A stretch of 64,000 nucleotides of DNA. Source: Octopus vulgaris (Eukaryota). The notes below the pieces were generated by a model that did not search any database, was not told where the DNA came from, and saw only the letters and a list, made by a program, of their open reading frames with translations. The stretch lies in the NCBI GenBank assembly GCA_951406725.2, contig OX597818.1, positions 115,506,001 through 115,570,000 of the forward strand. The letters are read 5' to 3'. A program made the translations under genes and the position numbers. This document shows, piece by piece, positions 50,742 to 63,223 of the stretch; the stretch's first letter is position 1; the number at the start of each line of letters is the position of its first letter.

Positions 50742-50905
50742 CTATTCTACATGTTTGAGGTGAAGAATTATGTACATTATTTACAATTGACGGATAGGTG
50801 TCCGCACCTTGTTTGTTGTTTACACAACATTTCCACCAGAACACCTGATGAAGGCTGGAGACAACAAACAAGGTAAGGAAACCTTACCGTCCATTGTAAA
50901 TAATG
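50742..50905 (-). mobile_element. Internally deleted copy of the fold-back hammerhead element
   Basis: Inverted arms CATTATTTACA..GACGGA / CCGTC..TGTAAATAATG. Retains ACACCTGATGAAGGCTGGAG; the one-sided tail is on the left. Confidence 0.75.
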
Positions 50906-50938
50906 AAAACATTTTTCAGTATTCAGTTACATCTCTTT

Positions 50939-55284: not shown

Positions 55285-55760
55285 TATCAAGCTTATTTTA
55301 GGAGCATGTAGGACCACACAATTGAATGTGACTTTCCAATATTTGATACTGAAAGGGGCAATCTAAGTGAGATTTTTGAAATCAATGAATGTATTTCACT
55401 AGAATTATTAGATGTTTACAAGGGCTAAATAGGCATCTCCAACTAGCAGGCCATGCTACTTCAGACTGAAGACGAGCAATAACTCAGAAACTAGTCTCTG
55501 GCTGCTGGCTTAGCTGGGTGGAGGTGCTTATCTCCCCCTTGTAAACATAAATACACAGAAAATGTGTCAAGGCCAACAGGAAGTGGTGCAGCTAAATAGG
55601 GCTAAATAGCAGTAGTATTATTCCCTTCATGGGACTGTCACATTAAGTAGACAGCATACAACTACTTTATTGTATCACTACTGTATAAATCTCTCTGAGA
55701 GAGTTAGAAATGTATTATTTCTGAAACCTTTGAACTTTTTGAACTTTACGTAAAACTATT
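55285..55760 (+). mobile_element. Penelope-like element 3' relic (possible degenerate GIY-YIG C-terminus plus hammerhead-bearing pLTR)
   Basis: EHV.../DHTIECDFPIFDTE...E...NECISLELLDVYKG* loosely resembles the end of the PLE endonuclease domain; a hammerhead motif follows about 30 nt later. Confidence 0.45.
55461..55501 (+). ncRNA. Minimal type I hammerhead ribozyme (PLE-type)
   Basis: TCAGA-CTGAAGA-c-GAG-caataa-CTC-a-GAAA-CTAG-TC^TCTGG: stem I TCAGA/TCTGG, intact core, palindromic stem III ACTAGT, GUC cleavage after 55496. Confidence 0.8.
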
Positions 55761-55806
55761 GTTATTATTACACACATTTTTTCTCTCCTTGTTTCTTTCT
55801 GTGTTC

Positions 55807-55842
55807 CTTTCTGAGGAAGAGCGTAGGCTCGAAACGTTAAAG
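55807..55842 (+). ncRNA. Minimal type I hammerhead ribozyme (PLE-type, second family)
   Basis: CTTT-CTGAGGA-a-GAGC-gtag-GCTC-GAAA-CG-TT^AAAG: stem I CTTT/AAAG, perfect stem II, palindromic ACGT stem III. Confidence 0.78.
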
Positions 55843-56466
55843 ACTTTTTCAATTCCCGAGCATTATACTAATACATCTATGTTTTCTACACCACCTGTTT
55901 TCGTCTTTTGTTTTTTTCGTGAATTCTCCCTAAATATATACAATGGGCATCTTTCATTTTTTGCTAACCAAATCCACTCACAAGGCTTTGGTCGGCCCAA
56001 GGCTAAAGCAGAAGACACTTGCCCAAGGTGCCACGCAGTGGGACTGAACCCAGAACCATGTAGTTGGTAAGCAAGCTTCTTACCTCACAGCCACGCCTGC
56101 ACCTACATGCAAAGTTTTATATTCTTTTCTACTCTGGGTACAAGGCTCAAAATTTTTCAGAGGGAGCTAGTCGATTAGATCGACCCCAGTACAAAACTGG
56201 TACTTAATTTATCTACCCCTGAAAGGATGAAAGGCAACGTTGACCTCGACGGAATTTGAACTCAGAACATAAAGACAGACGAAATACCACTACACAAAGT
56301 TTTATATTAAAGGTTTATTTCACTATAAAAATATGTTAATGGAATATAATGGAATGTGCACAAAAGTTGTTGGCCTGTTTCCTTAGTAGGAAGCAAAAAC
56401 TAGATGTTTCTAAGAAAAATGAAATAAATAACAATTAAAAGAATTAATTATCTACAACACACGCCA

Positions 56467-60854: not shown

Positions 60855-61168
60855 CATCATTCATTTTATTATTATTTATTACTAATTATTTTTTAGTCCT
60901 TCTTGATTGGCCACAAGACTAACATATAATACAAACCCTTTCATTCAGAACAGTTACAAAATATGAGAGAGCAAGTAAACTCGTGTGTGTGTGTGCATGC
61001 ATGTGTGTGTGTGTGAAGGCATACTCACACACAATAAGCAAGGAGGAGGAGAGAGACAAAAACATATTGCAGCATGGAAACAGGTTAATAATTTCAGAAA
61101 CAATAAAAAGATACATTATTTACATTATTTACATTCGACGGATATTTGTCCTCATCTTGTTTGTAGTT

Positions 61169-61214
61169 AACACAACGTTTCGGCTGATATACCCTCCAGC
61201 CTTCATCCGGTGTC
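61169..61214 (-). ncRNA. Hammerhead motif, left arm (U4->G core mutation)
   Basis: GACAC-CGGATGA-a-GGCTG-gagggtatat-CAGCC-GAAA-CG-TT^GTGTT. Confidence 0.7.
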
Positions 61215-61410
61215 TTGGGGAAATTTCGAACCTGGGTTCTCATTCCTAAGGTATTTTTCAATGTTATTATTTTTATTATTATCATTATTATTATTATTTC
61301 TATTCAGGTTACTGCCTAGTGACTTGAATAATAATAATAATAATAATAATAAAAATAATAACATCAAAAAATACCTTAGGAATGAGAACCCAAGTTAAAA
61401 ATTTCCCCAA

Positions 61411-61456
61411 GACAGCTGATGAAGGATGGAGGGTATATCAGCCTAAACGTTGTGTT
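61411..61456 (+). ncRNA. Hammerhead motif, right arm (G12->U and stem mutations)
   Basis: GACAG-CTGATGA-a-GGATG-gagggtatat-CAGCC-TAAA-CG-TT^GTGTT. Confidence 0.65.
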
Positions 61457-63223
61457 AACAACAAACAAGATGAGGGCAAATATCTGTCAAATGTAAATAA
61501 TGTAAATAATGCACATAATTCCTCATCTCGTAAATATAAAACTGAATAAAAAGATACACAAACAAAGACACCCATCCAGAAAGGAATGAAAAGCCAGCAC
61601 CTAAGAAACGAGAAGAGAGCACAGAAATCCGATCACCTCTGCACCAGGCACTCCTTGCTTTCTGCTAACTTCAAGCTACAAGTAGAATTTGTGTATTGAC
61701 CCTCAATATGAAGAAAGGAAAGGAAAGAATAAAAGAAATATAAAAGAAAAAATAAATGAATAAAATAATAAGCAACAGATGCGAATACGGCTCTGTGGTT
61801 AAGGAGATCAGGATTTCAGGTTCAGTCCCTCTGCAAAGCACCTTTGGATAGCCCTGGGTCAACAAATGTCTTCTGAGTGAATTTGTTAGACAGAAACTGT
61901 GTGGAAGACCATCGTGTGTGTGTGTGTGTGCCACCACTTGACAACTAGCGTTGATTTGTTTACATGGATGTAAACAAACCATCATTGTCAAAAGCAAACA
62001 ACAGAACAAGTATCGAACTTCAAGATAAATACAAAGGGTTGATTCGTTCGACTCAAATCTTCAAGGCAGTGCCCCAGCATGGCCACAGTCCAATGACTGA
62101 AACGACCATAGGAAGTTGAAAAGAAAAGGAAAATAAAACAGCAAAATAGAAGTATAAGATGAAAGAGAAGAAAGTAGAGATAGAAGAGAAACGAAAATAG
62201 AAAATAGAATAAAAAACAAAGGAGAGAAGATCCATCTTAATCGAGAAGAACTGTATACAGCCTATGATACCAGCCCAATAAATTACCTGCAATCAATCTA
62301 TAGATTCTCCATAAAAACTCCCTAAGGATTGAATGGTAAAGCCAGCCTAGTTGTATTTGAACCTAGAAATGGGAAACAAATTGAATTAGATAGCATAAAG
62401 AACATTTAGTGTTACTCTCCACGGCCCCCACAAACCAAGCTGGAGTCAATAACAACAACAACAACAATAATAGCTGTTGTTCTTGTCACTGCGTCATGGT
62501 AGAAAGGAATGGGGTTGGGTGGTCTATTTTAGATTCATTCTTATGCTATAATCATTTGGTTTTCCTTAAGCCTCTAAGAGAACCTTAGAACCTTGTTCAA
62601 CAATTTTTTAAAGTACTTGGAGCAAATTCCAAGTGCATAGGAATTGTTTAGGGTGCATCTGTGCTTAATCTTTTTTTTTCTTTCAGCATACCAAGTGCAG
62701 GCATGGTTGTGTAGTTAAGTTAAGAAGTTTGCTTCCAAAACCACATGGCTTCAGGTTCAATCCTACTGAACAGTACCCTGGGCAAGTATCGGTTCCGAGA
62801 TGACCAAAGTCTTGAAAGTGGATTTGGTAGGCAGAAACTGAAAAAAATTCCATAGAGTATGTCTCAGCCATAGAGTATGTCTCAGCACAAAGAGACAGAA
62901 AGACACATACACACAACCACAAAATGGGTTTCTTCCATTTTCTGTCTACAAAAATTCACTCATACAGCTTTGGTCGACTCAAGGCCACAGTAGAAGGCAC
63001 TTGCCTAAAGTGTCAAGCAATGGGATTGAACCCAAAACTACATGATTGAGAAGTAAACTACTCAAACACACAGCCTAATTAACTAGCAGCTATCATAGAA
63101 GCATCTCACTATTATCTCTTTACCATCTCTGCTAGAACTTTAAGAGTAAGGAGGTTAAGTACCAAAGTTTCATTTCCCACCAGGAATGCATTTTGCCTTT
63201 TACAAACGTGATAGCCTCTACAC

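What the first reader, a model, noticed from the sequence alone, without database searches (positions are those of the whole stretch)
61102..61558. Fold-back, non-coding mobile element with a hammerhead ribozyme in each arm (candidate Penelope-mobilised ribozyme retroelement family)
Seen: a 429-bp insert between 14-bp direct repeats (AATAAAAAGATACA), made of two ~190-bp inverted arms, a ~20-nt loop and a 33-nt tail on one side only. Each arm holds a hammerhead motif with a different lesion (left U4G; right G12U plus stem changes). Their consensus, supported by the third partial copy at 50841-50860, is an intact minimal type I hammerhead: GACAC-CUGAUGA-A-GGCUG/CAGCC-GAAA-CG-UU^GUGUU. Established: Penelope-like elements carry minimal hammerheads with palindromic stem III in their pseudo-LTRs, and inverted-pLTR copies carry a ~30-40-nt one-sided tail. 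Inference: this is a non-autonomous, ORF-less family that mobilises as a palindromic unit with a ribozyme on both strands. I know of no description of it in cephalopods, but cannot confirm that.
Basis: partly seen in the sequence, partly recalled or inferred. Interest (0 to 1): 0.85.

Follow-up and report, generated by a model that had tools for sequence, protein, structure and literature searches.

The report
Inverted stub of tRNA-headed Penelope retrotransposon

Summary
Observation confirmed: 14-bp duplication, 429-bp insert, two inverted arms 91% alike, 33-nt one-sided tail, one damaged minimal hammerhead per arm. The arm is the terminal repeat (pLTR) of a 2.65-kb Penelope-like element with an 835-aa RT + GIY-YIG ORF. 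It holds the ORF's first codons; the right arm still translates in frame. The palindrome is not a fixed unit: 47 of 86 sampled loci are head-to-head, 249-1248 bp long, with different junctions, variable duplications and a tail on one arm in 45. Papers from 2013-2014 describe this layout.

The less ordinary part is mostly deleted in this copy: a tRNA-Arg-like A/B-box head between the stop codon and the arm. Of 66 segments reaching it, 51 stop within 18 nt at its 5' end, mode at tRNA position 1. The family majority sequence has no TTTT on its sense strand (P about 0.03). This suggests Pol III transcription; RNA-seq neither shows nor excludes it. Short copies share variants with ORF-bearing ones, so there is no separate SINE. 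The scan already noted this family elsewhere in this genome (e1-8669850, e1-9583789 and others).

The parts
61102..61115 (+). Target-site duplication, left copy (14 bp)
   Evidence: duplications of 7-15 bp in 34 of 47 head-to-head loci
61116..61319 (-). Left arm: inverted, 5'-truncated pLTR/ORF start, ending at the inner 3' end site (about +130 from the ATG), no tail
   Evidence: 97% to family majority
61169..61214 (-). Minimal type I hammerhead, U4G lesion, inside the coding frame
61241..61243 (-). Start codon of the PLE ORF (left copy; reads MRTQVRNFPKTPDEGW...)
61263..61302 (-). (AAT)n tract of the pLTR, left copy
61303..61326 (.). Inversion junction: 3' remnants of the tRNA-like head on both strands, overlapping by 2 nt; A and B boxes lost
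   Evidence: junction against family sequence -50 to -15
61327..61359 (+). (AAT)n tract of the pLTR, right copy
61318..61511 (+). Right arm: direct, 5'-truncated pLTR/ORF start
   Evidence: 93% to family majority
61382..61544 (+). First 54 codons of the PLE ORF, still open
   Evidence: translation matches the N-terminus in L069, L075, L083
61411..61456 (+). Minimal type I hammerhead, G12U plus stem I and II changes; predicted cut after 61451
61512..61544 (+). 33-nt tail: ORF sequence between the two 3' end sites
   Evidence: equivalent to the PAc tail (PMC11167929)
61545..61558 (+). Target-site duplication, right copy
50767..50909 (.). Older, more diverged head-to-head remnant related to the same family (75-85%), with a half hammerhead at 50841-50860

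Best explanation
This is one dead insertion of an abundant Penelope-like retrotransposon with an RT + GIY-YIG gene, made of two 5'-truncated copies of its terminal repeat joined head to head, likely by priming reverse transcription on both nicked target strands, from an RNA that likely starts at a tRNA-type (Pol III) promoter in that repeat. Shown: the 2.65-kb unit is ORF - stop - 32 nt - tRNA-like head with A and B boxes - (AAT)n - ATG - hammerhead - two 3' end sites about 30 nt apart. Shown: head-to-head copies have one end at each site, variable duplications and variable inner junctions, and their two arms share variants. Inferred from PAc (PMC11167929): the protein binds the ORF-start RNA, nicks both strands and starts copying at two internal sites; the two cDNAs join at their far ends. 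Inferred: copying from the 5'-most sites runs only about 270 nt before reaching the RNA's 5' end at the head, which yields the many short, SINE-looking copies. This copy stopped earlier and lost the head. The hammerhead is likely uncut in the copied RNA.
For: ORF linkage: RT Pfam RVT_1 E 5e-10; C-terminus 38% over 176 aa to the GIY-YIG region of P0079, E 5e-29; arm and tail run on into the ORF in 3 of 30 RT-anchored loci and inverted pLTR pieces lie upstream in 12 of 30. Layout: 47 of 86 loci head-to-head, tail on exactly one arm in 45 of 47, duplication 7-15 bp in 34 of 47; 3' ends cluster at +115 to +139 and +155 to +164. Arms share 30 derived non-CpG changes against 8.3 expected, maximum 20 in 5000 shuffles. 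Head: A+B boxes in 1 of 20000 resamples; colinear with tRNA-Arg genes of this genome, z 8.6-8.8; 51 of 66 segments end at -100 to -117, mode -109 = tRNA position 1, and 38 of the 51 have no partner arm ending there; exact 20-mers 3917 in the head against 616 at the ORF end about 85 nt upstream; no T4 run in 2646 nt, 2.9 expected, P 0.027. No excess of 5' ends at the hammerhead cut.
Against: Pol III use is not shown. RNA-seq of a labelled species holding the family gives reads on both strands, 67-72% running into unrelated flanks, with no pile of starts. The T4 test is one consensus, P only 0.027, and G4 runs are also absent (1.0 expected). A palindrome (TGCCC-AC-GGGCA) lies at -116 to -105, and palindromes mark pLTR 5' ends in rotifer PLEs without any tRNA head (PMC3846280). 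ARAGORN finds no tRNA above its 70% threshold, and Rfam none at E<=1 in 4 loci. An uncapped Pol III RNA would need an unusual route to translation. Pfam GIY-YIG does not hit this family's own protein. No intact full-length ORF was seen among the copies fetched.
Confidence: 0.7

Rival explanations
1. Same PLE stub, but the tRNA-like segment is a passenger (a captured SINE head). The element is read by Pol II or by read-through, and the 5' wall comes from the palindrome stalling the RT or letting the cDNA fold back and prime itself.
For: Palindromes at pLTR 5' ends and self-priming are proposed for Adineta PLEs (PMC3846280, passages). The -116 ends seen mostly read TATGCCC, a fold-back of the head's first bases. 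D. virilis Penelope has a LINE-like internal promoter (PMC2377424). RNA-seq shows no discrete start.
Against: The mode is -109 (12 ends), inside the palindrome and exactly at tRNA position 1. 38 of 51 wall ends have no partner ending there. The hairpin has only 4-5 pairs. Both boxes are intact in the majority and T4 runs are absent.
Confidence: 0.2
2. A separate non-autonomous SINE (tRNA head + hammerhead + tail) copies itself with Penelope enzymes, as several earlier scan notes propose.
For: Short copies outnumber ORF-bearing ones about 6 to 1. Those with head and tail hold everything needed in cis. Schistosoma Sm-alpha joins a Pol III promoter to a hammerhead (PMC6765202, passages).
Against: The head directly follows the ORF stop in 67 of 168 head hits. 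No position changes its majority base between 67 ORF-linked and 68 short heads, or 59 and 55 arms; divergence and subfamily variants are alike. Occasional re-mobilisation of short copies is not excluded.
Confidence: 0.07
3. One reading: an ORF-less family that moves as a fixed palindrome with a working ribozyme on each strand.
For: Head-to-head pairs are common (47 of 86) and the two arms share variants.
Against: Junctions and lengths differ between loci; the arm encodes the ORF start; ORF-bearing copies have the same inverted layout. A transcript of the unit folds into one long duplex that buries the sense hammerhead.
Confidence: 0.03

Closest known systems
Penelope/Poseidon PLEs: Poseidon_Ac of Anolis (PMC11167929) and Adineta Pen2a/Pen2 (PMC3846280)
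   Same: Single ~835-aa RT + C-terminal GIY-YIG ORF; ORF start inside the pLTR near the hammerhead; ~31-nt tail on one inverted arm; head-to-head inverted pLTR; variable 8-10-bp duplications; palindrome at the pLTR 5' end.
   Different: Here the pLTR starts with a tRNA-Arg-like A/B-box head and an (AAT)n tract; Pen2a has a TATA/Inr-like motif instead. The ATG lies 34 nt upstream of the hammerhead core, so the whole ribozyme is coding.
Minimal hammerheads of metazoan PLEs (PMC4209133)
   Same: Core, single base before stem II, G10.1-C11.1 pair, palindromic stem III remnant, dual motifs on opposite strands 100-700 bp apart.
   Different: Nothing of note; cleavage untested here. Cephalopods were not named in the half of the paper I read.
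TRIMp3 elements Cassandra, Helenus, Ajax (PMC10886601)
   Same: A small-RNA-derived Pol III promoter placed inside a terminal repeat.
   Different: Those are short non-coding LTR elements (311-1263 bp); this is a protein-coding PLE of 2.65 kb.
Schistosoma Sm-alpha / Sj-alpha (PMC6765202, PMC2770079)
   Same: tRNA-related Pol III promoter followed by a hammerhead.
   Different: Non-coding tandem repeats with canonical hammerheads and no known linked ORF; here head and ribozyme are part of an RT-encoding unit.
Non-LTR retrozymes (PMC7229834; bioRxiv 10.64898/2026.07.22.740005)
   Same: Type I hammerhead repeats proposed to derive from PLE pLTRs.
   Different: Retrozymes are head-to-tail arrays; these copies are mostly single or head-to-head and keep the ORF start.

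Membership tests
EN+ Penelope-like element | RT domain in a single long ORF | tested here: met
   RVT_1 E 5.5e-10 and 1.4e-10 on natural ORFs; majority ORF 835 aa
EN+ Penelope-like element | C-terminal GIY-YIG endonuclease | tested here: met
   38% over 176 aa, E 5e-29, to the Pfam GIY-YIG region of P0079; no direct Pfam hit
EN+ Penelope-like element | pLTR from partial tandem, with hammerhead | tested here: met
   arm precedes and follows the ORF in L069 and L083
EN+ Penelope-like element | Inverted 5'-truncated copy, one-sided 30-40-nt tail, variable duplication | tested here: met
   47 of 86 loci; 45 of 47; 34 of 47 at 7-15 bp
Penelope/Poseidon clade | RT phylogeny against reference clade members | not tested
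   no reference set at hand; 40-42% to Anolis sagrei and Branchiostoma proteins and PAc-like layout only
Minimal type I hammerhead | Core and stems I and II | tested here: met
   majority intact at every core position; 1690 exact 34-mers; both window copies damaged
Minimal type I hammerhead | Stem covariation | tested here: inconclusive
   one distant PLE (L223) keeps stem II with other bases (by eye); none expected within the family; no Rfam hit
Minimal type I hammerhead | Self-cleavage | not testable with these tools
   no excess of copy ends at the cut site
tRNA-derived SINE | tRNA-like head with A and B boxes | tested here: met
   lost in the window copy
tRNA-derived SINE | Non-coding lineage independent of the autonomous partner | tested here: not met
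   head is part of the ORF-bearing unit; no diagnostic variants
tRNA-derived SINE | Pol III transcription | tested here: inconclusive
   5' wall and T4 absence for; RNA-seq uninformative
Non-LTR retrozyme | Head-to-tail arrays of ORF-less units | tested here: not met
   only occasional two-unit tandems (e.g. L024, L102, L105) among the 60 loci mapped
MITE / foldback DNA transposon | Symmetric ends and fixed-length duplication | tested here: not met
   asymmetric ends; duplications found range 2-15 bp

The most novel reading that the evidence does not exclude
A protein-coding, 2.65-kb Penelope-like retrotransposon has swapped its promoter for a tRNA-derived Pol III one and purged terminators from its whole coding strand. 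Because PLE reverse transcription starts inside the ORF's first codons, each transcript also yields ~270-nt tRNA-headed copies: a built-in route to SINE-like elements, whose 5' ends map the transcription start. The uncapped RNA would need hammerhead- or structure-aided translation.
Probability: 0.4. Interest if true: 0.72.

Novelty: new variant of a known kind. Interest (0 to 1): 0.42.

Why it matters
The fold-back and paired hammerheads are ordinary for Penelope-like elements. The family is still useful in two ways. Thousands of copies with one end at each of two sites, and arms from one source, support a two-strand priming model for the unexplained inverted PLE structure. If the tRNA-like head is the working promoter, this is a coding retrotransposon read by Pol III, against the usual split (autonomous elements Pol II, SINEs Pol III, as stated in PMC10886601), and it would explain how SINE-looking repeats arise from a PLE.

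Tried and rejected
Rfam scan of the window: no hammerhead among 88 weak matches; no tRNA match in 4 loci. ARAGORN: no call on the head in 14 loci (one unrelated tRNA-Ser in L005); only poor folds at threshold 70. Test for copies ending at the ribozyme cut: 6 of 210 ends in +70 to +79 (one counted twice), like neighbouring bins; rejected. Test for a separate SINE lineage: only small differences, chiefly a 9-nt indel at +119 to +124 that my query choice likely biased. Sequencing runs: no RNA holder listed on record; 3 raw RNA-seq runs and 4 contig sets plus one guessed-RNA set were laid (8 of 24 runs), no discrete starts or strand bias. Contigs of two other labelled organisms cover the right junction but with fewer than 31 letters inside the element, so shared insertion is not claimed. 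Close relatives with flanking DNA: the metagenome scan gave 9 distant loci; none has A/B boxes beside the match, and L223 has 16 T4 runs at 33% T, a poor control. A search with P0007 returned only this same family among the 30 loci fetched of 70 matches, so no in-genome sister family served as control. Paper searches: Penelope+hammerhead 45 papers; Penelope+octopus+SINE+tRNA-derived 1; Penelope-like+polymerase III+tRNA+pLTR 1; five-term SINE/Penelope 0; octopus+Penelope+TE+SINE 16; Sm-alpha 0 and 2; Pol III promoter/Ingi 35; Poseidon+Penelope+SINE+tRNA-like 0. Nothing I read describes a tRNA head in a pLTR. Dfam and Repbase are not available; the supplement of PMC13282606 was listed but not read, and its repeat library may hold this family.

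Full report
1. The observation. The described structure is present. A 14-bp direct repeat (61102-61115, 61545-61558) flanks 429 bp made of two inverted arms, 91.4% alike over 152 nt, and a 33-nt tail on the right. The insert folds at z = -31. The family majority is intact at all core positions (118 hits, core-selected loci left out), and an exact 34-mer spanning the core occurs 1690 times in the 2.8-Gb genome, reversed control 0. Rfam does not detect it.

2. It is part of a coding element. One arm-matching locus (L028) had an endonuclease-like frame upstream. Searching with it gave loci in which RT and GIY-YIG frames lead, through a tRNA-like segment and (AAT)n, into the arm (that output was partly cut). 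Of 30 loci anchored on the RT N-terminal region, 3 have the arm upstream in direct orientation, with arm and tail running on into the ORF, and 12 have inverted pLTR pieces upstream. The majority unit is 2646 nt with an 835-aa ORF. RT matches Pfam RVT_1. The C-terminus is 38% identical over 176 aa to the GIY-YIG region of P0079 but has no Pfam hit of its own. The ORF's ATG lies 34 nt before the hammerhead core, so ribozyme and tail are coding, and the window's right arm still reads in frame from 61382. Anolis PAc is similar: ORF start in the hammerhead, tail between two RT start sites (PMC11167929, parts 1-2 of 4 read).

3. The palindrome is made at insertion. Of 86 loci chosen without regard to layout (90 fetched, 4 overlapping or duplicate dropped), 47 are head-to-head units of 249-1248 bp; 45 of the 47 have the tail on exactly one arm and 34 have a 7-15-bp duplication (L116 and L147 look like one duplicated locus). 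3' ends fall in two clusters, +115 to +139 and +155 to +164 from the ATG. The two arms of a copy share 30 derived non-CpG changes against 8.3 in shuffled pairs, maximum 20 in 5000 (47 pairs); this fits one source RNA, though gene conversion could add to it. The same layout, with a 31-bp tail and 9-10-bp duplications, is described for Adineta Pen2a and Pen2 (PMC3846280, passages) and as general for EN+ PLEs (PMC8557442, passages). Opposite-strand hammerhead pairs were noted in PMC4209133 (parts 1-2 of 4 read). I infer two-strand priming, since PAc cleaves and extends both strands in vitro; self-priming is the published alternative. In this copy both cDNAs stopped about 45 nt upstream of the ATG and joined over 2 shared bases.

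4. The tRNA-like head. Between stop (-141) and ATG lies a 73-nt segment from -109 with an A box at -102 and a B box near -57; the pair appears in 1 of 20000 resamples of the spacer (box patterns recalled). It aligns end to end with tRNA-Arg genes of this genome, z 8.6-8.8, best among the few isotypes in 30 fetched tRNA loci. It does not fold as a tRNA. In 85 loci, 96 segments reach the head; 66 reach -100, and 51 of these stop between -100 and -117 (12 at -109, 9 at -116), 9 stop by -135 and 6 go further. For 38 of the 51 no partner arm ends at the same place. Genome-wide, a head 20-mer occurs 3917 times and an ORF-end 20-mer 616 times; contig depth in another labelled organism steps up at the same point. 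The sense strand has 14 T3 runs and no T4 run; codon permutation expects 2.9, P 0.027. T4 as Pol III terminator is cited in PMC4758252 (passages). Against: a palindrome lies at -116 to -105 and palindromes mark pLTR ends in rotifers; G4 runs are absent too; there is no matched control family; RNA-seq gave reads on both strands without start piles, which fits read-through of embedded copies. D. virilis Penelope uses a LINE-like internal pLTR promoter (PMC2377424, abstract and discussion read).

5. Not a separate SINE. Heads linked to the ORF end (67) and heads at the wall without ORF (68), of 168 head hits, and their arms (59 and 55) show the same majority bases, variants and divergence. Internal priming explains the short copies without a second family. 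There is no excess of ends at the ribozyme cut, matching the finding that uncut RNA is the PAc template.

6. Comparison and novelty. It works like, and by the features tested is, an EN+ Penelope-like element; the Poseidon clade label is by layout and similarity only. Closest analogues for the head are TRIMp3 elements (PMC10886601, passages) and Sm-alpha (PMC6765202 and PMC2770079, passages). The retrozyme preprint (10.64898/2026.07.22.740005, parts 1-2 of 5) and PMC7229834 (passages) concern tandem arrays. Nine searches and the passages read showed no tRNA-headed pLTR; octopus repeat surveys (PMC13282606, PMC8967140, passages) count Penelope families without such detail, and I did not read the supplement or see Repbase. 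I had reached this reading before looking at earlier scan notes; two agree, several prefer a SINE.

7. Verdict. The finding as framed is a known insertion pattern of a known class. The family's tRNA-like head is a plausible new variant with indirect support. Confidence: PLE stub about 0.95; two-strand priming about 0.7; head marks the RNA 5' end about 0.65; Pol III makes the full coding RNA about 0.4.

Noticed in passing
window 55765-55935 (+): A second hammerhead repeat family, T-rich, next to TA microsatellites, 4832 candidates. Most copies read CTGTGGA in the core where the window copy reads CTGAGGA. Likely another PLE terminal repeat; clade not determined.
   Followed up: partly
window 55380-55730 (+): A third hammerhead family, ~290-nt unit in partial head-to-tail tandem, palindromic stem III, no A/B boxes, 2193 candidates. 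No linked ORF found in 20 loci; retrozyme-like or a pLTR.
   Followed up: partly
window 55801-55845 and 55708-56070: The second family's hammerhead region also reads as an open frame in this copy and in L127; possibly another ORF start.
   Followed up: no
L012:630-1220 and L029:705-1300: The same ~600-bp unrelated repeat sits inside the (AAT)n tract of two different copies (also seen beside L004 and in L033); it seems to target this microsatellite.
   Followed up: no
L148, L150, L156, L161, L162, L169 near 1460-1470: Copies ending at -116 read TATGCCC rather than the source TTGCCC, a short fold-back of the head's first bases.
   Followed up: partly
L223:367-2430: Distant PLE (30% identity) on a metagenome contig with a very similar minimal hammerhead after its ORF and no tRNA head.
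   Followed up: partly
family position +38 and +107: Linked variants mark a subfamily; the hammerhead change falls on variable position 7 and is a conservative D-to-E change in the ORF.
   Followed up: partly
L211:2358 and L005:3095-3167: Other tRNA-like heads with A/B boxes, unrelated to this family.
   Followed up: no
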